A stretch of 64,000 nt of DNA, from positions 2,220 to 66,219 of the forward strand of contig JBBSBF010000002.1 of the NCBI GenBank assembly GCA_038251535.1, written 5' to 3'. Shown piece by piece: positions 23,623 to 62,443 of this stretch. The notes below the pieces were generated by a model, which ran no database searches, was not told the origin of the DNA, and saw only the letters and a list, made by a program, of their open reading frames with translations. The translations under genes were made by a program, and so were the position numbers. The first letter of the stretch is position 1; the number at the start of each line of letters is the position of its first letter. The stretch is from Minisyncoccia bacterium. Lineage in GTDB: Bacteria > Patescibacteriota > Minisyncoccia > Phycocordibacterales > UBA9973.

Positions 23623-23877
23623 TTAATAGCAATCGCAATAAGGTTTTTGTTTGCCACAGTCAGCACATTTATTAGCTTCTTCTCTTCTGTATTCTCTTTC
23701 TTTTGCTTCTTCGTTTAGAACCCATTCTTGTGAATGTTCATCCCATTCCATACCTTCATAAAATCCCCCTTTTGCATTGCTTGTAAAGTATTCATTGTTT
23801 GTCATTAATCCTTTGCTTTTATGATGATCATCATAGAAGGTGTCATTTGGATTATGGCCGGGATACTTTTTACTCAT
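23623..23877 (-). CDS. small hypothetical protein with a C-terminal Cys cluster (CADCGKQKPYCDCY)
   Basis: 84-aa ORF with a proper terminator downstream. I recognise no family. Confidence 0.4.
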   Translation of the reverse strand: MSKKYPGHNPNDTFYDDHHKSKGLMTNNEYFTSNAKGGFYEGMEWDEHSQEWVLNEEAKEREYRREEANKCADCGKQKPYCDCY

Positions 23878-23919: not shown

Positions 23920-26900
23920 ATGTCAATCATCACCCCACAAAATCAAAACCAAAAATCTAACCAAGCACTTCGCCCTGCCGACGCGAAGTCCGCTATGGCG
24001 GGCAGGGAAGAAGCAGTTTTGGCATTCTGGAAAGAAAACGACATTTTCAAAAAGTCGCTTGAGAAAGATGCGCCAAACGGAGAATTTGTTTTTTACGAAG
24101 GTCCTCCAACGGCGAACGCAAAGCCGGCGCTTCACCACCTCGAAGCACGAGCATTTAAGGATGTCTTGCCTCGGTATAAAACGATGCAGGGCTTTCATGT
24201 GCGTCGTCGTGCGGGATGGGATACACACGGACTTCCTGTCGAACTCCAGATCGAAAAGAAACTCGGCTTCACGCACAAAAAACAAATCGAAGAATATGGT
24301 ATCGCAGCATTTAACAAAGAATGCAAAGATAGTGTGTTTACTTTTATTAAAGATTGGGAAGATTTCACCGAACGAATGGGGTACTGGGTAGATAAAAATG
24401 ATGCATACTATACGTTTGATCCATCCTACATGGAGAGTCTCTGGAATATTTTTGCAAAAGTTGATCGAGATGGATTGCTCTACAAAGACTACAAAGTCGT
24501 GCCGTGGTGTCCGCGATGTGGGACGACGCTCGCATCTCACGAACTTGCACAGGGATATCAAGATGATAAAGATTTGAGTGTTATTGCAAAATTCACGCTT
24601 ACTACTCACAGTATTGGATTGCTTCGGTCCTCGGGTCGCGTCGATGGGGCCGCTCAACCAGACACTCACCAATCCAACACTGCTCGTATGTCGCTCCTCG
24701 CATGGACGACAACACCATGGACACTGCCTGGGAATGTGGGATTGGCTGTTGGAAAGGATGTTGAATATATACTCATTCATCAAAATAATGAATTTTTGGT
24801 TCTTGCAAAGAATCGCTTGGAAATAATGAATGGAGGATATGAAATTATTTCCGAATTAAAGGGTTCTGATCTTGTTGGTCTTGAATACGAACCACTATAT
24901 CCCTATCTCGGCGAACTCATCAAAGGTCATCACCAAGAAAAGAATATGCAGAACGCATACAAAGTATATGCTGCGGATTTTGTCACGACCACAGACGGTA
25001 CTGGTATTGTGCACACTGCAGTGATGTATGGAGCCGAGGACTTTGAGCTCGGCACACAGGTGGGACTTCCCAAATTTCATACCGTAGACGCAGAAGGAAA
25101 GTTTGTACAAGGAACTGGATTCCTCGAAGGTCGCTTTGTCAAAGACGAGGAAGTAGCGATCGATATCATCAAAGATCTTGCACATCGCGGACTCTTGTTC
25201 AAAAAAGAAAAGTACGAACACTCATATCCGCATTGTTGGCGCTGCAAGACTCCGCTCATCTACTACGCGCGTGATAGCTGGTATATCGGTATGTCGCAGC
25301 TTCGCGATAAGCTAATGGCTGAAAATGAGCAGATCAACTGGGAACCGTTCCATATCAAGGAAGGACGATTTGGTGAGTGGTTACGCGAAGTGAAAGACTG
25401 GGCGATTTCTCGGGAGCGATATTGGGGGACACCGCTACCGATCTGGCACAACGAACACGATGGAGTACATGATCGCATCGTGGTTGACTCGATCGAGACA
25501 CTTAAAAAATATACAAAGAAATCAGGCAATGAATACTTCGTCATGCGGCATGGACAGTCAGAAGGAAATATTCGGTTAGTAGTCAGCTCACAGGTTACCA
25601 ACAAGGATCCGCTCACCGAGGAGGGTAGAAAACAGGTGTATGCTGCATCGGAACAACTTTCAAATATCGATATGATTGTTGCATCTCCATTTATGCGTAC
25701 CACTGAAACAGCGAAAATCATGGCGGAAAAATACGGTATCGACCCAGAAACAATCGTGTACGACGAACGGCTCGGCGAGATCAATGCAGGTGAGCTCGAA
25801 GGAAAAGAATGGAAGCTCTACCACGAATTTCTCTACGAACACGATCGAGATGAGTGGTATGAGCGTGCGATACCACAAGGAGAATCACTTGCCGATGTTG
25901 CGAGACGTGTTGGAGCTGTACTGTATGATATCGAAAAAACATATAGTAAAAAAAAGATTTTGATCGTAACACATGGCGGCCCAGCGTGGTTATTATATGT
26001 AGTTGCAGGTCAGTACCAACCAAACGGTAAAAACTACACCGTAGTTGATAATCATATTGTTGGAAAAGATTTTAAGTATTTTGATAATGCAGAGATACGA
26101 CCATTGCCGTTTGTGCCATTGCCGCATAATGAAAATTTTGAGCTCGATCTCCATCGTCCGTACATTGATGAGGTAGTACTTGAAAAGGATGGACATGATT
26201 TTCATCGAGTGAAAGAAGTGATGGATGTGTGGTTTGATAGTGGCTCGATGCCGTTTGCTCAGGATCATTATCCCTTTAGTAACAAAGAGCTTTTGTATCC
26301 CGCAGATTTTATTTCAGAAGCGATCGATCAGACGCGTGGATGGTTTTATACCCTCCATGCAGTAGGGACACTCATGGGTAGAGGCCGCGCGTTTAACAAC
26401 GTCATCTGTCTTGGTCACCTTCTCGACAAGGAAGGCAAAAAGATGTCCAAATCGATCGGCAACATAGTTGAACCATTTGCTCAAATAGAAAAGTTTGGCG
26501 TCGATAGCGTGCGTCTCTGGATGTACTCAGTCAACCAACCTGGAGAGAGTAAAAACTATGATGAAAAAACAGTGGGTGAATTACAGCGACAAGTCTTTGG
26601 ACTGCTCAATAACGTCATTGCATTTTATGAACTGTACCGAGATACGTCGATTGAACATATTGTGCCAACGGGAGAGCATGTCCTTGATGCATGGATAGCG
26701 ACGAGACTTGATCAACTTATCAGTTTTGTCACCGAAGAATTGAACCATTACCGTGTCATGCAACCAGTACGAGAAATGCGAGCCTTTATCGAAGACCTCT
26801 CGACATGGTACTTGCGAAGAAGTCGTGATCGAATAAAAGACGGCGATACTGTAGCGAAAGCGACCCTATATCGTGTACTCAAGACGCTCGCGCAAGTCAT

Positions 26901-27495
26901 GGCGCCGTTTGCTCCATTCGCTGCGGAAGATATCTGGCAAAAGCTCCGCCAGGAGGATGATGTCGAAAGTGTGCACTTAAGCGAGTGGCCAAAGGCAATG
27001 GAGATCAGTGACGAATTACTTACCACTATGCAAATAGTAAGAAATATTTGTACTGAAGGTAATGCACTCCGCAAAAAGCTGGGAATTGCAGTGAAGCAAC
27101 CACTTGGGAAGTTTGAAGTTGCAAATATAGACCTTCGAGGTCTCAATTTTAATCTATTGGATAAATATCTCGAACTAATAAAAGAAGAATTGAATGTGAA
27201 AAATGTTGTAGCTGGATCTAAAACAAGTCTCGATACGACTCTTACCTCTGAACTCAAAGCAGAAGGGAACTATCGCGAGCTCGTTCGTGCCGTGCAGGAT
27301 ATGCGCAAGGCAGCAGGACTTGAACCGAGTGATATGGTCAGTATAGGGTTGTCTTCAAACGCACTAGACTTACTAAATCCATTCATCGATGAATTTAAAA
27401 AGACTGTTCAAGCAAGCACTGTAACGTTTGTCGAAAACGATGGTACAGAAGTGAAGATCGATGAATTGAACATACATATTAGTATTGAGAAATAA
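23920..27495 (+). CDS. ileS: isoleucine--tRNA ligase (type 2-like) carrying an inserted histidine-phosphatase domain
   Basis: WTTTPWTLP editing-domain motif, KMSKSIGN, DLHRPYID and DVWFDSGSMPFAQ are present. A roughly 160-180-aa PGM-superfamily module with all its catalytic motifs sits at residues about 538-699. The HIGH position reads ALHH. Confidence 0.9.
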   Translation: MSIITPQNQNQKSNQALRPADAKSAMAGREEAVLAFWKENDIFKKSLEKDAPNGEFVFYEGPPTANAKPALHHLEARAFKDVLPRYKTMQGFHVRRRAGWDTHGLPVELQIEKKLGFTHKKQIEEYGIAAFNKECKDSVFTFIKDWEDFTERMGYWVDKNDAYYTFDPSYMESLWNIFAKVDRDGLLYKDYKVVPWCPRCGTTLASHELAQGYQDDKDLSVIAKFTLTTHSIGLLRSSGRVDGAAQPDTHQSNTARMSLLAWTTTPWTLPGNVGLAVGKDVEYILIHQNNEFLVLAKNRLEIMNGGYEIISELKGSDLVGLEYEPLYPYLGELIKGHHQEKNMQNAYKVYAADFVTTTDGTGIVHTAVMYGAEDFELGTQVGLPKFHTVDAEGKFVQGTGFLEGRFVKDEEVAIDIIKDLAHRGLLFKKEKYEHSYPHCWRCKTPLIYYARDSWYIGMSQLRDKLMAENEQINWEPFHIKEGRFGEWLREVKDWAISRERYWGTPLPIWHNEHDGVHDRIVVDSIETLKKYTKKSGNEYFVMRHGQSEGNIRLVVSSQVTNKDPLTEEGRKQVYAASEQLSNIDMIVASPFMRTTETAKIMAEKYGIDPETIVYDERLGEINAGELEGKEWKLYHEFLYEHDRDEWYERAIPQGESLADVARRVGAVLYDIEKTYSKKKILIVTHGGPAWLLYVVAGQYQPNGKNYTVVDNHIVGKDFKYFDNAEIRPLPFVPLPHNENFELDLHRPYIDEVVLEKDGHDFHRVKEVMDVWFDSGSMPFAQDHYPFSNKELLYPADFISEAIDQTRGWFYTLHAVGTLMGRGRAFNNVICLGHLLDKEGKKMSKSIGNIVEPFAQIEKFGVDSVRLWMYSVNQPGESKNYDEKTVGELQRQVFGLLNNVIAFYELYRDTSIEHIVPTGEHVLDAWIATRLDQLISFVTEELNHYRVMQPVREMRAFIEDLSTWYLRRSRDRIKDGDTVAKATLYRVLKTLAQVMAPFAPFAAEDIWQKLRQEDDVESVHLSEWPKAMEISDELLTTMQIVRNICTEGNALRKKLGIAVKQPLGKFEVANIDLRGLNFNLLDKYLELIKEELNVKNVVAGSKTSLDTTLTSELKAEGNYRELVRAVQDMRKAAGLEPSDMVSIGLSSNALDLLNPFIDEFKKTVQASTVTFVENDGTEVKIDELNIHISIEK
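25531..26016 (+). other. histidine phosphatase (phosphoglycerate-mutase superfamily) domain embedded in ileS
   Basis: RHG motif (FVMRHGQSEGN), RxxETA motif (RTTETAKI), acidic ELEGKEW, and the second His (ILIVTHGGPAW). Confidence 0.7.
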
Positions 27496-27498
27496 TCT

Positions 27499-28056
27499 AT
27501 GAAGAATGCCATCATCATTCACGGTATGCCGACAAAACAAGAGTACGATACAACACCGAACCAGTCACAACAACACTGGCTTCCATGGATTAAACAACAA
27601 CTCGAAGCACAAAAAATAATAACGACCGTTCCTGATATGCCGATGCCATATGCGCCGGTGTATGAAGAATGGAAAGATACTTTTGAGTGTATCCTTCTTT
27701 CTAAAGAAACGATATTGGTAGGACACAGTTGTGGTGGAGGATTTCTCGTGCGATGGCTTTCTGAACATGATGTGAAGGTTGGGCAACTTATCCTCGTTGC
27801 ACCATGGATAGATATTGAGAAAAAGCTTCCGAATGGATTTTTTGATTTTGAAATTGACACCAATCTTCTGATCAAGACAATGAACGGAATCTCCATGTTT
27901 TACTCGGCTGACGATGATGTTGATATTTTGCAAAGTGTTGAAAAACTCAAAACGATACAAGGGATTAAGATTCGAGAATTTTCAAACAAGGGTCATTTTG
28001 TGAAGGGAAGCGGTGTCTCAGAATTTCCAGAATTATTGGAAGGAATAAAATATTAA
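27499..28056 (+). CDS. alpha/beta-hydrolase, RBBP9/YdeN-like serine hydrolase
   Basis: About 185 aa with a nucleophile elbow (VGHSCGG) and a late Asp/His region. Confidence 0.55.
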   Translation: MKNAIIIHGMPTKQEYDTTPNQSQQHWLPWIKQQLEAQKIITTVPDMPMPYAPVYEEWKDTFECILLSKETILVGHSCGGGFLVRWLSEHDVKVGQLILVAPWIDIEKKLPNGFFDFEIDTNLLIKTMNGISMFYSADDDVDILQSVEKLKTIQGIKIREFSNKGHFVKGSGVSEFPELLEGIKY

Positions 28057-58420: not shown

Positions 58421-61400
58421 TTGAGCATTCCTGATAATGCAGCACTAAGTACAGGGGATATAGATTTTACTGTTGCAGGGTGGGTGTACTTAAGCTCTAA
58501 AACTACCTCACAAGGTTTAATAGGTAAATGGGATAGTGGAACTACTCGTGAATATCTTATTTATTATAATACCAGCGGTGATAGTTTTAATTTTGGTGTA
58601 AGCAGTAATGGAAGTAATTTAACAACCATTACAGCTAGCAGTTTTGGTTCTCCTGCTCTTAACACATGGTATTATGTCGTTGGATGGCATGATTCTGTTA
58701 ACAACACACTCAATATTCAAGTAAATAATGGGACAACAAACTCAGTTAGTTATTCTTCTGGAGTTATTGATAGCACGTCTTCATTTTATATTGGGCAGTA
58801 CCAAGGTGGACAATTTTTTACTGGTAATATAGATAGTGTCGGCCTTTGGAAGAGAGTGTTAACTAGTCCTGAAAAAGCAACACTTTATAATTCAGGAAAT
58901 GGACTTGAATATCCTTTTGTGGTCACTGTTCCCGATGCTCCAACTTCACTTTCAGCAAATACGGGAAATGCACAAGCTTATTTGTACTGGGACCCACCTT
59001 CTAATACTGGTGGTTCATCAATCACAGATTATATTGTCGAATATAAACTTTCAAGTGAGCCAACGACTTGGTCAACGTTCTCTGATGGGACGAGTACAGT
59101 AACGTATACCACAGTTACGGGGCTGACAAATAACCTTTCTTATGATTTTCGAGTCAGCGCAGTAAATGCAATCGGTACTGGTACAGCATCAGGTGTCGCG
59201 ACAACAACACCCCTTCTTCTGTCGACTTTGTTAAGTGATAGCTTCACCGGTACAACTATCGATACAGCAAAATGGACAGAAATAGATAGCATTGCAGGTG
59301 GTACAGGTGGAAACGTTACTCAAAATGGAACATTAAGTGTTGCAAATAGTTTCGTTGCATCGACATGGGGAGCAACAGCGCTTTATTCTACGAACACCTT
59401 TTCTTCAAACGGTCTTGAAATATCAGCAATTATGACTCCGGGAGGTGATCAGTTTATTGAGTATGGTGACATCAATTTTCAATCTGCGGGGACTAGAGCA
59501 TACATACTTTTTTTGACAGGTGGTGGTGTTCAAGGAATTGCTAAAAAGGATGGAGCGTATACATCGAATGTAAGTTGCGGAACAGCAACAAGTGGGGCTA
59601 CGTACAAGATGAAAATTATTACAACTGGATTTCAAATATACAAGAATGGTGTATTACAGTGCGTTGCAAATCCCGGAGCTTCTAATTTAGTGGATAATAA
59701 ACCTGTTTTTCTTGAATCCGCTACAACTGCGAGTACTTTTGATGATGTATTAGTTTACGGTGATAGCGCGACAAGTACAGTACCAGATGCTCCAACTGCG
59801 GTCTCAGCAACAGCGGGGGATGCACAGGCAATTGTCTCTTTCACCGCACCAGCTTCAAATGGAGGATCTGCTATTACAAGCTACACAGTTACCTCCTCTC
59901 CTGGTGGCATTACGGGTACAGGTTCTACTTCTCCAATTACCGTTACTGGTCTGACAAACAATACCGCTTACACATTTATTGTTACCGCAACAAACTCTAT
60001 TGGGACTAGTGCCTCTTCATCTTCTTCAAATAGTGTCACTCCTACTGCTTCTTCATTACAATCAATATCGATTACAAATGCAAATCTTGTCTGGAGTCCT
60101 TACAATTGGCATTTCAACGGATCAACATCTGCAACTACTAATCCTGGCGGAGCATATGTAAAGGTTGCATTTAGTGGCACAACGCTTGCGATTGGCGTCG
60201 ATACATCTTCGCTAGGCTCTGTACCTGCTTCATCGATACACATTCATACATTTATTGATGGTTCAACAAGTCTTATTGATAAAACACTTGCAAATGCAGT
60301 GAGTAACACGGTCACCATAAGCAGTTCTCTTTCTTCTGGCAATCATTATGCAATTATATATCTTGGTATTACAGACAATAATGTCGCCTATGATAGATGG
60401 ACTGTCCCCAATAATGCATTAAAAATAACGAACATAAAAATTGATGCTGCAGAGAGTATCTTGTCATTGAGCAGTACACCATTGGCACAAAAATCACAAA
60501 AAATAATTATATTTGGTGATTCAATTACTGAAGGATCTATTAACATTGTCACCGGCTCCGAATATGGGTATGCAGCAATTATGGGTAAGACGTACAATGC
60601 TGAATACGGACAAATTGGGTATGGAGGACAAGGATGGAATAGAGGAGGAAGAGGAAGTGTGCCTGCATTTTATAACGCAACAACACCAGGGCTTGCCTCG
60701 TGGCGTTCGTACGACAGCACCGCAACTAGACTCGTAGATGTAAACGACCTTTCCGCGGGTTTTATTGGAGGAAATCCGGATGCAGTATTTGTCAATATGG
60801 GCACTAACGATGCTATTAATAGTGTTGGTACAACACTGCAAGAAAATGCTATAGCTGCATGGCTCGCAGATATCAGGTTGACTGTGGGTAATACTGCGAA
60901 AATCTTTATTATCTCTCCATTTGATTTTGGCAATACAGGAAGTAGTACTTATGCACCGTATAAGACATCTTTATTGGCTGGCATTAATGATTATAAATTG
61001 GCAGACCCTGCTGATAATAAAGTATATATACTTGATTTAGGTATGCCTGGTTATAATACTGTCGTTGCTAATTCAAGTGATAGTCTTCATCCAAACAATA
61101 CTGGGTCTGCATTGCTTGGTAATCAATTAGCGGCACTAGCTGTTTCCACGTCAACTTTTACGACATCTCCAAGCACCACAGTGCAAGACAGTACTGCTGT
61201 CACTATCACCCTTACCGGTACTGGTACAGCGTGGACAACTGGAACGCCAGGGACCCCTACCTTCTTACTCTCTGGAGGAACCGGTGCTAGTATTACTGCT
61301 CAAACAATCACTTCAAGTACCAGTGCCACACTCACCATCAATGCTGGCAGTGCAGTAACTACTCTTACCATCGCTGACCCAACAAATAATTCAACAACTA

Positions 61401-62443
61401 CTGTTTCTGTTACTTCATCTGATATTATCCCACCCGTTATTTCACTTACCACACCTTCTGTGGGTACTGTTTCCGGACCTTCAGTTACTGTCTCGGCATC
61501 AGCTTCTGATAATGCAGTTGTCATTGGTGTTCAGTTTAAACTCGATGGAAGTAATCTTCAAGCTGAAGACATTGTATCTCCTTATGTGATTAGTTGGGAC
61601 ACTACTACCGTTGCAGATGGAATTCACACGCTGACTGCAGTTGCTAGAGATGCAGCAGGGAATAGTACAACGACTTCATCGACCTCTGTAACTGTCGACA
61701 ACACCCCTCCCTCCCTCTCCCTCGGTTCTCCTTCAGGCTCTCTTGCTTCCTCAACCACCTCAACTACACTCTCCATCACCACCGACGAATCTTCCACCTG
61801 CAAATACGACACCACCCCAAGCACTCTCTACGCATCCATGTCTCACACCTTTGATACCACGGGAGGTACTTCTCACACTTCTTCTCTCACCAGTCTCACC
61901 TCTGGAACGTCATACTCATACTACATCCGTTGCATCGACGCTTCTTCCAATGCAAACACGTCTGACTACACCATCTCCTTCTCAGTTGATGCTCTCTCAA
62001 CCATCCCTCATATCAACATCACCTCTATCGGATACAATCCTTCATTCCTTCCAGGTCTTCTCTTTCCAATCACTAACAGCACTAACAGCACTAACAGCAC
62101 TGACACCACTGCGTGTAGAAGAGGAGACTCCTTCTCCATGACTACCGGTGCTCGATGTACACCTACTACTCCTTACACTCCACCATCATCATTCATCTTC
62201 ACCCGTTCACTCTCTTGGCATGACACAGGGGACGACGTCAGATCCCTCCAACACTATCTCAACACCCACAACACACCTGTTGCACCCTCTGGTGTTGGCT
62301 CTCTCAATCATGAGACAACATACTTTGGGTTAGCGACGAGAGCTGCAGTGATGGCATTCCAGAAGGCGAACGGACTCGTCGATGATGGGGTGGTGGGGCC
62401 GATCACGAGGAAGGTGATTGAGTCCGTCGAAAGGCAGAATTGA
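58421..62443 (+). CDS. giant secreted multidomain surface protein: LamG - FN3 - FN3 - SGNH/GDSL hydrolase - Ig-like Thr/Ser-rich region - C-terminal peptidoglycan-binding domain
   Basis: Two FN3 units (PDAPTSLSA...YLYWDPP, PDAPTAVSA...IVSFTAP). SGNH block I (IIFGDSITEG) and block V (DSLHPNNTG). A C-terminal PG_binding_1 motif (AAVMAFQKANGLVDDGVVGPIT). The ORF begins with TTG and is in frame with the 58184 fragment. Confidence 0.7.
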   Translation: MSIPDNAALSTGDIDFTVAGWVYLSSKTTSQGLIGKWDSGTTREYLIYYNTSGDSFNFGVSSNGSNLTTITASSFGSPALNTWYYVVGWHDSVNNTLNIQVNNGTTNSVSYSSGVIDSTSSFYIGQYQGGQFFTGNIDSVGLWKRVLTSPEKATLYNSGNGLEYPFVVTVPDAPTSLSANTGNAQAYLYWDPPSNTGGSSITDYIVEYKLSSEPTTWSTFSDGTSTVTYTTVTGLTNNLSYDFRVSAVNAIGTGTASGVATTTPLLLSTLLSDSFTGTTIDTAKWTEIDSIAGGTGGNVTQNGTLSVANSFVASTWGATALYSTNTFSSNGLEISAIMTPGGDQFIEYGDINFQSAGTRAYILFLTGGGVQGIAKKDGAYTSNVSCGTATSGATYKMKIITTGFQIYKNGVLQCVANPGASNLVDNKPVFLESATTASTFDDVLVYGDSATSTVPDAPTAVSATAGDAQAIVSFTAPASNGGSAITSYTVTSSPGGITGTGSTSPITVTGLTNNTAYTFIVTATNSIGTSASSSSSNSVTPTASSLQSISITNANLVWSPYNWHFNGSTSATTNPGGAYVKVAFSGTTLAIGVDTSSLGSVPASSIHIHTFIDGSTSLIDKTLANAVSNTVTISSSLSSGNHYAIIYLGITDNNVAYDRWTVPNNALKITNIKIDAAESILSLSSTPLAQKSQKIIIFGDSITEGSINIVTGSEYGYAAIMGKTYNAEYGQIGYGGQGWNRGGRGSVPAFYNATTPGLASWRSYDSTATRLVDVNDLSAGFIGGNPDAVFVNMGTNDAINSVGTTLQENAIAAWLADIRLTVGNTAKIFIISPFDFGNTGSSTYAPYKTSLLAGINDYKLADPADNKVYILDLGMPGYNTVVANSSDSLHPNNTGSALLGNQLAALAVSTSTFTTSPSTTVQDSTAVTITLTGTGTAWTTGTPGTPTFLLSGGTGASITAQTITSSTSATLTINAGSAVTTLTIADPTNNSTTTVSVTSSDIIPPVISLTTPSVGTVSGPSVTVSASASDNAVVIGVQFKLDGSNLQAEDIVSPYVISWDTTTVADGIHTLTAVARDAAGNSTTTSSTSVTVDNTPPSLSLGSPSGSLASSTTSTTLSITTDESSTCKYDTTPSTLYASMSHTFDTTGGTSHTSSLTSLTSGTSYSYYIRCIDASSNANTSDYTISFSVDALSTIPHINITSIGYNPSFLPGLLFPITNSTNSTNSTDTTACRRGDSFSMTTGARCTPTTPYTPPSSFIFTRSLSWHDTGDDVRSLQHYLNTHNTPVAPSGVGSLNHETTYFGLATRAAVMAFQKANGLVDDGVVGPITRKVIESVERQN
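62072..62107 (+). repeat. 9-nt microsatellite (actaacagc) x3 plus a degenerate copy, encoding TNSTNSTNSTD
   Basis: Read directly from the sequence, inside the giant surface protein gene. Confidence 0.7.

What the first reader, a model, noticed from the sequence alone, without database searches (positions are those of the whole stretch)
25531..26016. Complete histidine-phosphatase (PGM-superfamily) domain inserted inside isoleucyl-tRNA synthetase
Between the IleRS catalytic-core segment DWAISRERYWGTPLPIW and the conserved LDLHRPYID segment there are about 240 residues. A canonical type-2 IleRS has only about 30-60 there. The extra segment carries every catalytic signature of branch-1 histidine phosphatases in the correct order and spacing: RHG (FVMRHGQSEGN), RxxETA (RTTETAKI), an acidic EGKEW, and the second His (IVTHGGPAW). 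That makes it a potentially active phosphatase/mutase module embedded in an essential aminoacyl-tRNA synthetase, with the reading frame intact on both sides. I know of no described IleRS with this architecture. It could be a new editing, proofreading or nucleotide-dephosphorylating accessory, or a resistance-related module, since type-2 IleRS is a known antibiotic target.
Basis: partly seen in the sequence, partly recalled or inferred. Interest (0 to 1): 0.8.

Follow-up and report, generated by a model that had tools for sequence, protein, structure and literature searches.

The report
Histidine phosphatase nested inside isoleucyl-tRNA synthetase
The enzyme that charges tRNA with isoleucine in this tiny-genome bacterium carries a complete, apparently active phosphatase inside a surface loop; the arrangement is common across its bacterial radiation, sometimes appears as a neighbouring gene instead, and seems never to have been described.

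Summary
The ORF at 23920-27495 (+, 1191 aa) is an intact type-2 IleRS (TIGR00392 858 bits; cutoff 621). About 206 residues (aa 533-738) replace a 4-residue loop of the CP3 subdomain. They form a complete branch-1 histidine phosphatase (PF00300, E 4e-32; AF2 pLDDT 90-96).

It is not an assembly chimera. All 120 closest homologs, from independent assemblies, share the architecture, as do at least 95 of the 150 best 50%-identity cluster representatives. These come from Paceibacteria-type and Peregrinibacteria lineages. Some carry 2-4 tandem copies.

The catalytic set R543/H544/N550/R593/E620/H685 is invariant in close homologs and kept in 92 of 99 divergent embedded copies.

New here: where IleRS lacks the insert, the same phosphatase subfamily can be a separate gene abutting ileS (five loci, two IleRS subtypes, two orientations). 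Once it is fused to the t6A enzyme TsaC. This argues for a real functional partnership with tRNA-Ile charging.

The substrate is unknown. The domain fits no curated functional subfamily (dPGM, CobC, PspA, SixA).

No paper describing this architecture was found. I rate it a new variant of a known kind. It is widespread and machine-annotated but undescribed.

The parts
23920..27495 (+). ileS: 1191-aa type-2 isoleucyl-tRNA synthetase with a nested phosphatase (stop codon included)
   Evidence: ORF. TIGR00392 858.2 bits against a cutoff of 621.4. The full-length AF2 model (pLDDT 82.5, pTM 0.70) superposes on IleRS2 8C8V (TM 0.79) and 1ILE (TM 0.88), both normalised to the target.
23920..25515 (+). 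IleRS N-terminal part (aa 1-532): first Rossmann half, CP core, CP1 editing domain, CP2, CP2-3 linker and the start of CP3
   Evidence: Aligns to 8C8W residues 6-478. The WTTTPWTL editing motif is at aa 262 and the HTAVMYG motif at aa 365.
24127..24138 (+). Class I signature motif in its non-canonical form, ALHH (aa 70-73)
   Evidence: Aligns to the GVHH of the 8C8W mutant. ALHH occurs in 84 of 120 homologs and GIHH in 34 of 120. The G/AXHH class is described in PMC10485003.
25396..25428 (+). CP2-3 linker DWAISRERYWG (aa 493-503), immediately upstream of the host subdomain
   Evidence: Invariant in the homologs. The equivalent ScIleRS segment, 453-ARDWNVSRNRYWG-465, lines the reveromycin/tRNA-CCA pocket (PMC7955072).
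25516..26133 (+). Inserted module (aa 533-738): N-linker KKSGNEY, histidine-phosphatase domain, variable loop, last strand and C-linker FVPLPHNE
   Evidence: Boundaries come from the alignment to 8C8W. PF00300 covers aa 540-711. The stand-alone AF2 model has pLDDT 87.3 and pTM 0.87. Foldseek probability is 1.00 to PspA, TIGAR, PhoE, CobC and GpgP.
25546..25554 (+). R543-H544-G545: the phospho-accepting histidine motif
   Evidence: Invariant in 120 and in 50 homologs. Retained in divergent embedded copies.
25567..25569 (+). N550 of the RHGxxxxN motif
   Evidence: Invariant.
25696..25698 (+). R593 (SPxxRTxETA), a phosphate-pocket arginine
   Evidence: Invariant.
25777..25779 (+). E620, the catalytic acid/base
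   Evidence: Invariant. Aligns with the family Glu in PspA and PhoE.
25972..25977 (+). H685-G686, the second catalytic histidine
   Evidence: Invariant.
26020..26079 (+). Variable, low-confidence loop of the insert (aa 701-720)
   Evidence: pLDDT 56-63 and 42-64. Variable in length in the alignment.
26134..27495 (+). IleRS C-terminal part (aa 739-1191): the rest of CP3 (LDLHRPYID), DVWFDSG, second Rossmann half, KMSKS (aa 841-845, nt 26440-26454), anticodon-binding and C-terminal domains
   Evidence: Aligns to 8C8W residues 483-848 and beyond. PF08264 covers aa 923-1062 and PF19302 covers aa 1102-1191.

Best explanation
The gene encodes the type-2 IleRS of a Patescibacteria (Paceibacteria-like) bacterium. 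It is probably the housekeeping copy, but copy number could not be checked. A complete branch-1 histidine phosphatase of about 200 aa is nested in the surface subdomain CP3, about 25 residues after the CP2-3 linker that lines the tRNA-CCA pocket.

Shown: the synthetase keeps its synthetic-site motifs, its editing motifs and its anticodon domains. The insert folds as an independent histidine-phosphatase domain whose first and last strands bring its two ends together. Its catalytic residues are under strong purifying selection across a very deep clade.

Inferred: the module is an active phosphomonoesterase using the standard family mechanism. H544 attacks the phosphate, which is held by R543, R593, N550 and H685. 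A phospho-histidine intermediate forms, and E620 acts as the acid/base.

Inferred from genomic association: it is a dedicated partner of isoleucyl-tRNA formation and not a random passenger. The same phosphatase subfamily is found nested in IleRS, nested in tandem copies, encoded as a separate gene abutting an insert-less ileS, and once fused to TsaC. TsaC makes the threonylcarbamoyl-AMP needed for t6A37, which is a bacterial IleRS identity element.

My best guess is that it hydrolyses a small phosphorylated compound linked to the adenylate-forming step. Candidates are a nucleotide phosphate, pyrophosphate, a phosphorylated amino-acid derivative or a phosphorylated adenylate mimic. I think tRNA or protein substrates are less likely, and it is not an editing domain. 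The substrate itself is unknown.
For: Architecture and intact IleRS.

Nested in CP3: the insertion point aligns to about Sc492 and Ca499. CP3 spans residues 459-526 in ScIleRS and 473-534 in CaIleRS.

Fold and confidence: pLDDT 90-96 in the full model; pTM 0.87 for the insert alone; Foldseek probability 1.00 to histidine phosphatases.

Selection: R543, H544, N550, R593, E620 and H685 are invariant in 120 and in 50 homologs, while the rest of the insert is less conserved than the IleRS body (0.55 against 0.72-0.75). 92 of 99 fully covered embedded copies in divergent 50%-cluster representatives keep all six residues, including both copies of tandem forms.

Breadth: 120 of 120 top homologs carry the domain. 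At least 95 of the best 150 representatives carry IleRS flanks. GTDB loci come from Paceibacteria, Yanofskybacteria, Spechtbacterales, Minisyncoccia and a Peribacteria MAG.

Functional coupling: a free-standing member of the subfamily directly abuts an insert-less ileS in L086/L087, L092/L093, L094, L098 and L090. Spacing ranges from a 10-nt overlap to a 10-nt gap. Four are co-directional and L090 is convergent. These ileS genes belong to two IleRS subtypes. In L094 there is no argS upstream.

TsaC fusion: P0158 passes the TIGR00057 cutoff (146.8 against 123.2 bits). t6A as an IleRS determinant: PMC2685093.

Nanoarchaeota relative: it lies between aEF-1beta and a HIT hydrolase.

Small-molecule-like domain: the nearest structures are all metabolite phosphatases and share a cap of similar size.
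Against: No activity data exist, and the substrate is pure inference. The domain fails every curated functional subfamily cutoff, so nothing can be transferred by homology. Presence is patchy: 112 of the 120 closest relatives of an insert-less Patescibacteria IleRS lack the insert. L010 and L011 have no copy within 3 kb of ileS, so the function is dispensable or is supplied elsewhere. Four of ten free-standing relatives examined are not next to ileS. The TsaC fusion rests on one 3.7-kb contig. The ileS-adjacent loci are related genomes, so the adjacency cases are not fully independent. I could not obtain model coordinates, so the position of the phosphatase active site relative to the synthetic site and the tRNA path is unknown. 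If the substrate were PPi or AMP, it is unclear why only IleRS among the synthetases would need the domain.
Confidence: 0.55

Rival explanations
1. Passenger metabolic phosphatase. The domain would be an ordinary small-molecule phosphatase (phosphoserine, sugar-phosphate or ribazole-type) that became fused to, or linked with, an essential and constitutively expressed gene in reduced genomes. It would work independently of isoleucylation.
For: All nearest structures and profiles are metabolite phosphatases: PspA, PhoE, CobC, TIGAR, GpgP and the riboflavin HFP. Some free-standing relatives sit in metabolic neighbourhoods, such as next to a ROK kinase, or near inositol-1-P synthase and AdoMet synthase. 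Insert presence is patchy within Patescibacteria. CP3 is a plastic, surface-exposed subdomain that should tolerate insertions.
Against: The association with ileS recurs in four different genomic forms: nested, tandem-nested, adjacent co-directional and adjacent convergent. It occurs with two IleRS subtypes. There is also a fusion to TsaC, another tRNA-Ile-related adenylate-forming enzyme. Nesting inside a catalytic domain of an essential enzyme is a costly way to achieve mere co-expression.
Confidence: 0.25
2. Built-in protection module. The phosphatase would reverse or pre-empt an attack on IleRS. It might remove an inhibitory phosphate put on the synthetase or its tRNA by a toxin kinase. Alternatively it might destroy a phosphorylated isoleucyl-adenylate mimic made by a host or competitor.
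For: The host IleRS already carries the non-canonical ALHH signature, which has been linked experimentally to mupirocin hyper-resistance. That shows this clade has been shaped by inhibitor pressure. NCBIfam curates an IleRS with a GNAT domain (NF040702). From my own knowledge, GNATs and HIT hydrolases detoxify aminoacyl-nucleotide antibiotics. A HIT gene follows the free-standing relative in Nanoarchaeota. The patchy distribution, with gains, losses and tandem amplification, is typical of conflict-driven traits. Toxin kinases that inactivate synthetases (HipA on GluRS, HipT on TrpRS) are known; this is my own knowledge and was not tested here.
Against: The capped active site resembles small-molecule phosphatases and not open protein phosphatases such as SixA. 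No kinase or toxin gene is linked in any locus examined. The ALHH/GxHH motif does not correlate with the insert. I know of no phosphorylated natural IleRS inhibitor. Conservation across a very deep clade fits a housekeeping role better.
Confidence: 0.12
3. Non-catalytic role. The domain would serve only as a structural, dimerisation or ligand-sensing module, a pseudo-enzyme that modulates IleRS through the strands that flank the isoleucine pocket.
For: The conserved linkers (SGN and FVPLPHN) and high model confidence at the junctions suggest a fixed orientation. Many histidine phosphatases are dimers (my own knowledge), and tandem copies occur. The flanking motifs DWxISR and DVWFDSG belong to the catalytic core.
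Against: All six catalytic residues are invariant or near-invariant while the surface drifts. That is the signature of retained chemistry. A sensing role that uses the phospho-histidine chemistry is not excluded, but it would still require catalysis.
Confidence: 0.06
4. Assembly or annotation artefact: a chimeric join of an ileS and a phosphatase gene.
For: None found. The window is a metagenome-type sequence and no reads were available.
Against: The frame is intact and composition is continuous. The same architecture appears in 120 of 120 top homologs from NCBI, JGI, ENA and Logan assemblies, on contigs up to 0.8 Mb. It also appears in 10 GTDB species representatives and in metagenome loci L099-L101.
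Confidence: 0.01

Closest known systems
Type-2 (eukaryote-like) bacterial IleRS, e.g. P. megaterium IleRS2 (8C8U-8C8W), T. thermophilus IleRS (1ILE) and D. radiodurans IleRS2
   Same: The whole synthetase body aligns end to end. It has the same domain set: tRNA-synt_1, CP1 editing, Anticodon_1 and DUF5915. It carries the same non-canonical ALHH signature as DrIleRS2.
   Different: Those enzymes have a CP3 of about 60-65 residues. Here and in its relatives, CP3 hosts a phosphatase domain of about 200 aa, or two to four of them.
Small broad-specificity branch-1 histidine phosphatases: PspA (4IJ5), PhoE/YhfR (1H2E, 1EBB), CobC (6E4B), GpgP (4PZ9), TIGAR (3DCY), riboflavin HFP (9MMH)
   Same: The fold, the size, the cap region and the full catalytic set R-H-N-R-E-H.
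   Different: Sequence identity is only 21-27%. The domain is below every curated subfamily cutoff. It has a subfamily-specific N-terminal SGNxY motif and a C-terminal F-x-P-L-P-H-N motif. It is nested in, or linked to, a tRNA synthetase and is not a stand-alone metabolic enzyme.
Bifunctional RNase H / acid phosphatase (Rv2228c type, NCBIfam NF005567)
   Same: A CobC-like histidine phosphatase is joined to a nucleic-acid enzyme, and the link between the two activities is unclear. It is the second-best NCBIfam match of the insert (78 bits).
   Different: That is an end-to-end fusion and not a nested insertion. The partner enzyme is different. The score is far below the cutoff of 326.
CP1 editing domain of IleRS, ValRS and LeuRS
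   Same: It is the precedent for a second catalytic domain nested inside the Rossmann fold of a class Ia synthetase (PMC13114784).
   Different: CP1 is a hydrolase for mischarged aminoacyl esters, is universal in these enzymes and sits at a different insertion point. The phosphatase has unrelated chemistry, sits in CP3 and is lineage-specific.
IleRS with an N-acetyltransferase domain (NCBIfam NF040702, ileS_w_GNAT)
   Same: A curated example showing that bacterial IleRS can acquire an extra enzymatic domain.
   Different: The extra domain is of a different family. It lies before the region aligned to window residue 349, so it is at a different site. The window protein scores 316.7 against a cutoff of 1999.
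Histidine-phosphatase domain of the yeast TFIIIC tau55 subunit (my own knowledge, not tested here)
   Same: A histidine-phosphatase domain built into a tRNA-related machine, with no established substrate.
   Different: It is eukaryotic, it belongs to a transcription factor, and it is not nested in a catalytic domain.

Membership tests
Isoleucyl-tRNA synthetase (TIGR00392 equivalog; type 2) | Whole-protein score above the curated cutoff | tested here: met
   858.2 bits against a cutoff of 621.4, in two stretches split by the insert.
Isoleucyl-tRNA synthetase (TIGR00392 equivalog; type 2) | Class I signature motifs (HIGH-type and KMSKS) | tested here: met
   KMSKS is at aa 841-845. The HIGH position reads ALHH, which is the described non-canonical G/AXHH variant of IleRS2.
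Isoleucyl-tRNA synthetase (TIGR00392 equivalog; type 2) | CP1 editing domain and anticodon-binding domain present | tested here: met
   WTTTPWTL is at aa 262 and HTAVMYG at aa 365. The T. thermophilus editing-domain structures match aa 255-438. PF08264 covers aa 923-1062.
Isoleucyl-tRNA synthetase (TIGR00392 equivalog; type 2) | Aminoacylates tRNA-Ile | not testable with these tools
   Requires biochemistry.
Histidine phosphatase superfamily, branch 1 (PF00300) | Profile score above the gathering threshold | tested here: met
   111.8 bits (116.4 for the excised region) against 21.7. Profile positions 2-173 of 194 are matched.
Histidine phosphatase superfamily, branch 1 (PF00300) | Catalytic core: RHG histidine, two arginines, Asn, Glu acid/base and a second histidine | tested here: met
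   R543, H544, N550, R593, E620 and H685 are invariant. They are kept in 92 of 99 divergent embedded copies.
Histidine phosphatase superfamily, branch 1 (PF00300) | Alpha/beta phosphoglycerate-mutase-like fold | tested here: met
   The AF2 model has pTM 0.87. Foldseek probability is 1.00 and TM 0.63-0.72 to PspA, PhoE, CobC and TIGAR.
Histidine phosphatase superfamily, branch 1 (PF00300) | Phosphomonoesterase activity through a phospho-histidine intermediate | not testable with these tools
   Requires an enzyme assay.
Cofactor-dependent phosphoglycerate mutase (TIGR01258; NF038349) | Score above the curated cutoff | tested here: not met
   TIGR01258 scores 21.4 against 81.7. NF038349 scores 72.5-73.9 against 225. 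The second-His motif reads THGGPAW and not the mutase-type HGNS (sequence reading plus my own knowledge).
Alpha-ribazole phosphatase CobC (TIGR03162) | Score above the curated cutoff | tested here: not met
   82.0-85.4 bits against 162.9.
Phosphoserine phosphatase PspA (NF045917) | Score above the curated cutoff | tested here: not met
   48.5-52.7 bits against 350, even though PspA is the best solved-structure match.
Phosphohistidine phosphatase SixA (TIGR00249) | Score above the curated cutoff | tested here: not met
   26.5 bits against 74.5, and only the N-terminal 70 residues match.
Acquired mupirocin-resistant IleRS MupA / MupB (NF000257, NF000258) | Score above the curated cutoff | tested here: not met
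   717.3 and 747 bits against 1900. This is general type-2 similarity only.
IleRS with GNAT domain (NF040702) | Score above the curated cutoff | tested here: not met
   316.7 bits against 1999. Pfam finds no acetyltransferase domain.

The most novel reading that the evidence does not exclude
The phosphatase would be a third catalytic centre of isoleucylation in Patescibacteria and some DPANN archaea. It would be a dedicated accessory enzyme, nested in IleRS, encoded next to it or fused to TsaC. It would act on a so-far unrecognised phosphorylated intermediate, by-product or inhibitor of tRNA-Ile charging or t6A formation. If so, aminoacylation in this huge radiation would include a step unknown in model organisms.
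Probability: 0.3. Interest if true: 0.88.

Novelty: new variant of a known kind. Interest (0 to 1): 0.68.

Why it matters
Aminoacyl-tRNA synthetases are among the best-studied enzymes. Extra catalytic domains in bacterial synthetases are essentially limited to editing modules. Here a catalytically intact phosphatase sits inside the catalytic domain of IleRS. It is conserved across a radiation that may hold a large share of bacterial diversity, and it is replaced in some members by a neighbouring gene. Together these features point to an unrecognised requirement of isoleucyl-tRNA formation, or of its defence, in ultra-small symbiotic bacteria.

The finding also gives a clean experimental handle: a single polypeptide, a point mutant (H544A), and natural insert-less and split versions for comparison.

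It has a practical side too. The insert prevents NCBI's pipeline from naming most of these proteins as IleRS, so genome-completeness and metabolic surveys may undercount the enzyme. IleRS is also an antibiotic target, and the active-site variant present here (ALHH) is linked to hyper-resistance.

Tried and rejected
- Assembly chimera: rejected, because many independent assemblies share the architecture.
- Split ileS genes starting at 'MRHG': the proteins that begin at the phosphatase are contig-edge fragments. P0126 starts 8 nt from a contig end.
- A free-standing copy beside the insert-less Patescibacteria ileS of L010 and L011, or elsewhere in the 64-kb window: none found.
- Correlation between the insert and the non-canonical HIGH motif: none. 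Both motif classes occur with and without the insert.
- Naming the organism or the relatives through cluster look-ups: almost no names were returned.
- Rfam scan for a T-box or other leader upstream of ileS: no match in the whole window.
- AlphaFold-database fold search: the library was not available.
- Recurrence of the TsaC-phosphatase fusion: the metagenome scan found only phosphatase-only or IleRS-linked relatives.
- Literature: eight full-text searches and the papers read gave no description of the architecture. One further query failed on syntax.
- Neighbour-joining trees of the IleRS body and of the phosphatase domain: too poorly resolved, and without support values, to count gains and losses. 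I use them only qualitatively.
- Geometry of the two active sites: the tools return no model coordinates, so this could not be computed.
Full report
**1. The observation**

The window holds one uninterrupted ORF at 23920-27495 on the + strand, 1191 aa long.

- Pfam finds tRNA-synt_1 split into two stretches.
- His_Phos_1 (PF00300) covers aa 540-711, with E 4.3e-32 and 111.8 bits against a gathering score of 21.7.
- Anticodon_1 and DUF5915 follow.
- NCBIfam's ileS equivalog TIGR00392 scores 858.2 against a cutoff of 621.4, also in two stretches.

GC content and skew run smoothly through both junctions.

One detail is wrong. The catalytic acid is E620 in RLGEINAG. It is invariant and aligns with the family glutamate.

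**2. Where exactly the insert sits**

Against the closest solved structure, P. megaterium IleRS2 (8C8W), query residue 532 aligns to chain residue 478 and query 739 to chain 483. About 206 residues (aa 533-738, nt 25516-26133) therefore replace a 4-residue loop.

The same alignments put the insertion point at about residue 492 of S. cerevisiae IleRS and 499 of C. albicans IleRS. The published domain boundaries give CP3 as residues 459-526 in ScIleRS (PMC7955072) and 473-534 in CaIleRS (PMC7191050). The phosphatase is therefore nested inside the CP3 subdomain.

What the literature says about CP3 and its surroundings:

- CP3 differs in topology between IleRS of different organisms.
- In human IARS1 it is a protein-docking surface (PMC13439101). 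It is thus a plastic, exposed element.
- The segment just upstream (DWAISRERYWG here, ARDWNVSRNRYWG in yeast) lines the pocket that binds reveromycin and the tRNA CCA end.

I measured the distance from WGxP to DVWFDSG in 80 loci. It is 58-86 aa in 68 canonical type-2 IleRS, 247-262 aa in nine Patescibacteria loci, and 267 aa in the window.

**3. Structure**

The full-length AlphaFold2 model has mean pLDDT 82.5 and pTM 0.70. The insert is among the best-predicted parts, at pLDDT 90-96 over aa 530-700. Only a variable loop at aa 701-720 is poorly defined.

The model superposes end to end on IleRS2 structures, with TM 0.79 to 8C8V and 0.88 to 1ILE, normalised to the target. The synthetase fold is therefore complete around the insert.

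Modelled alone, the insert gives pLDDT 87.3 and pTM 0.87. It matches branch-1 histidine phosphatases with probability 1.00. The hits are PspA 4IJ5/4IJ6, TIGAR, the riboflavin HFP 9MMH, PhoE, CobC and GpgP, with TM 0.63-0.72 at 21-27% identity.

The first strand (RHG) and the last strand (NAEIR) belong to the same domain in the model. By the standard topology of this fold they lie side by side, which explains how the domain fits into a loop. That last point is inference from the known fold, because the tools return no model coordinates.

**4. Not an artefact; how widespread it is**

All 120 best homologs carry PF00300 together with the IleRS domains. They are 58-72% identical to the query. They come from NCBI, JGI, ENA and Logan, on contigs up to 0.8 Mb. 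Where they have names, these are Paceibacterota, Nomurabacteria, Minisyncoccia or 'Patescibacteria group'.

A search with the insert alone against 1.84 billion cluster representatives gave 757 hits at E<=1e-10. Of the best 150, at least 95 carry IleRS flanks.

Among GTDB species representatives the insert occurs in MAGs labelled Paceibacteria, Yanofskybacteria, Spechtbacterales and Minisyncoccia. It also occurs in a Peribacteria MAG (phylum Peregrinibacteriota), whose CP3 loop is 447 aa long and holds two phosphatase domains. Other representatives have two to four tandem copies.

Presence is not universal. Among the 120 closest relatives of an insert-less Patescibacteria IleRS (L011), 112 lack the domain and 8 have it. 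A crude neighbour-joining tree places those insert-less forms among insert-bearing ones. This suggests secondary loss, but the tree has no support values.

**5. Is the phosphatase alive?**

R543, H544, N550, R593, E620 and H685 are invariant in alignments of 120 and of 50 homologs, as are G569, S589, T597, E655, R663 and G686. Mean column conservation of the insert is lower than that of the IleRS body, at 0.55 against 0.72-0.75.

In the much more divergent representative set, 92 of 99 fully covered embedded copies keep all six catalytic residues. Most exceptions are conservative (E to D, N to Q). Both copies of tandem forms are intact.

This is the pattern of a working enzyme and not of a structural relic. 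The IleRS itself keeps KMSKS, the editing motifs and the anticodon domain.

**6. What kind of phosphatase**

The domain falls below the curated cutoff of every functional subfamily model:

| Model | Score (bits) | Cutoff (bits) |
|---|---|---|
| CobC (TIGR03162) | 82-85 | 163 |
| Archaeal dPGM (NF038349) | 72-74 | 225 |
| dPGM (TIGR01258) | 21 | 82 |
| PspA (NF045917) | 48-53 | 350 |
| SixA (TIGR00249) | 26.5 | 74.5 |
| RNase H/acid phosphatase (NF005567) | 74-78 | 326 |

Its cap region is similar in size to those of small-molecule phosphatases. Close homologs fall into two sequence types in that cap. No substrate can be assigned by homology.

**7. Evidence for a functional link with IleRS**

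This is the main new result. Some of the best non-IleRS hits are free-standing proteins of about 190-210 aa. They share the subfamily's N-terminal SGNxY-xx-RHG motif. I looked up their genomic contexts.

| Locus | Arrangement |
|---|---|
| L086/L087 | argS, phosphatase, insert-less ileS (1 nt apart), recO, DUF11 protein |
| L092/L093 | argS, phosphatase, insert-less ileS |
| L098 | argS, phosphatase, insert-less ileS (10-nt overlap) |
| L094 | phosphatase precedes ileS; no argS upstream |
| L090 | phosphatase abuts an insert-less ileS on the opposite strand |

- The gene order downstream of ileS in L086 (recO, then a DUF11 protein) is the same as in the window.
- The ileS genes next to these free-standing phosphatases belong to two different IleRS subtypes. 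One has a canonical HYGH motif with a cysteine-rich CP3. The other is query-like.
- Two further contexts end at a contig edge right after argS and the phosphatase. Four others are unrelated to ileS.
- One representative, P0158, is a fusion of a bona fide threonylcarbamoyl-AMP synthase with this phosphatase. TIGR00057 scores 146.8 against a cutoff of 123.2. It was seen on one contig only.
- TsaC, like IleRS, makes an acyl-adenylate from ATP and an amino acid. Its product t6A37 is a determinant for bacterial IleRS (PMC2685093).
- In a Nanoarchaeota MAG the relative lies between aEF-1beta and a HIT-family hydrolase.

Fusion, nested fusion and conserved adjacency in different orientations, with different partner subtypes, are the classical genomic signs of a functional partnership.

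**8. Most likely mechanism, and what is only inferred**

- Shown: the architecture, the fold, the conservation and the genomic association.
- Inferred from family knowledge: H544 attacks a phosphomonoester held by R543, R593, N550 and H685, forms a phospho-histidine, and E620 acts as the acid/base.
- Inferred from partners and the capped pocket: the substrate is a small phosphorylated molecule connected with adenylate-forming tRNA-Ile enzymes, and not tRNA or protein.

An editing role is unlikely on chemical grounds, because the family does not hydrolyse aminoacyl esters. I cannot say which substrate it is.

A generic product such as PPi or AMP would not explain why only IleRS is involved. A defence role against a phosphorylating toxin or a phosphorylated adenylate mimic remains possible. 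It is made slightly more attractive by the ALHH signature motif of the host enzyme. That motif class was linked experimentally to mupirocin hyper-resistance (PMC10485003). It does not track the insert, however.

**9. Comparison with what is known, and novelty**

The protein is a member of type-2 IleRS and of the branch-1 histidine phosphatases. It is not a member of any characterised phosphatase subfamily, nor of the MupA/MupB or GNAT-IleRS exception families.

Nested catalytic domains in class Ia synthetases are known only for CP1 editing.

Eight full-text searches, and reading recent IleRS structure and evolution papers, found no description of a phosphatase in IleRS. These included a 2026 preprint on IleRS domain evolution that mentions neither phosphatase nor Patescibacteria.

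Databases already hold the Pfam assignments. PGAP names most insert-bearing proteins only 'class I tRNA ligase family protein', while insert-less relatives are named 'isoleucine--tRNA ligase'.

My verdict is a new variant of a known kind. It is real, widespread and undescribed, and its function is still unknown.

Noticed in passing
window 24127-24138 (aa 70-73): The class I HIGH signature reads ALHH. This is the non-canonical G/AXHH motif, identical to that of D. radiodurans IleRS2, which was shown experimentally to give mupirocin hyper-resistance (PMC10485003). Among 120 homologs, 84 have ALHH and 34 have GIHH. The motif does not correlate with presence of the insert.
   Followed up: yes
L097:977-2140 (protein P0158): A single-polypeptide fusion of a TsaC-type threonylcarbamoyl-AMP synthase (passes the TIGR00057 cutoff) with the same histidine-phosphatase subfamily. 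It was seen on one 3.7-kb contig only. A metagenome scan found no second example.
   Followed up: partly
L033:2899-7314 (Peribacteria MAG); also P0147, P0150, P0161, P0181, P0219, P0242, P0244, P0263: IleRS with two to four tandem histidine-phosphatase domains in the same CP3 loop. Nearly all copies keep the catalytic residues. Free-standing tandem two-domain proteins also exist (P0199, P0246, P0248, P0257, P0269).
   Followed up: partly
L081-L084 (Nanoarchaeota MAG), e.g. L081:5719-7285: A free-standing relative of the insert lies in a co-directional run: aEF-1beta (EF1_GNE), His_Phos_1, then a HIT/DcpS_C-family hydrolase. This hints at a nucleotide or adenylate-related substrate, but it is one lineage only.
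   Followed up: no
L086:6303-11367, L092:3341-8471, L098:2432-7341: A conserved argS, phosphatase, ileS gene string in some Patescibacteria. Intergenic spacing ranges from a 10-nt overlap to 10 nt. The recO and DUF11 genes downstream match the window's gene order.
   Followed up: yes
L090:2682-5609 (minus strand): The ileS convergent with the free-standing phosphatase has one in-frame stop near codon 412, and the contig contains ambiguous bases. This could be a sequencing error, a pseudogene or an alternative genetic code. I did not resolve it.
   Followed up: no
window 24595-24684 (aa 226-255): An extra loop of about 25 residues in the CP1/editing region that is absent from P. megaterium IleRS2 and from most homologs. 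It has low model confidence (pLDDT below 50 at aa 247-253).
   Followed up: no
window 1-64000: No Rfam family reaches its gathering score anywhere in the 64 kb. There is no tRNA, rRNA, riboswitch or T-box leader upstream of ileS.
   Followed up: no
homolog tables: NCBI's pipeline names insert-less Patescibacteria proteins 'isoleucine--tRNA ligase' but most insert-bearing ones only 'class I tRNA ligase family protein'. The insert seems to break automatic naming and could distort gene-content surveys.
   Followed up: partly
L041 and L065 (Treponema MAGs): In a crude neighbour-joining tree of the IleRS body, these insert-less Treponema IleRS group near the candidate-phyla clade that carries tandem inserts. 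This could be horizontal transfer or a long-branch artefact.
   Followed up: no
window 25516-26133 and alignment A2: Close homologs fall into two sequence types in the phosphatase cap and C-terminal region: an 'EINAG...W(F/Y)...HGGPAW' type and an 'EWNVG...DRY.FKT...HG(G/A)xxRA' type. This may reflect different substrate preferences.
   Followed up: no
window 23623-23877 (minus strand): An 84-aa ORF with a cysteine-rich C-terminus (CADCGKQKPYCDCY) lies in the AT-rich gap upstream of ileS. It has no Pfam match.
   Followed up: no
window 58421-62443: A 1340-aa predicted surface protein combining LamG-like, fibronectin-III, GDSL lipase, bacterial Ig-like and peptidoglycan-binding domains.
   Followed up: no
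window 27499-28056: A Ser_hydrolase (PF06821) gene starts 4 nt after the ileS stop and is followed by recO 7 nt later. This suggests one transcription unit with ileS.
   Followed up: no
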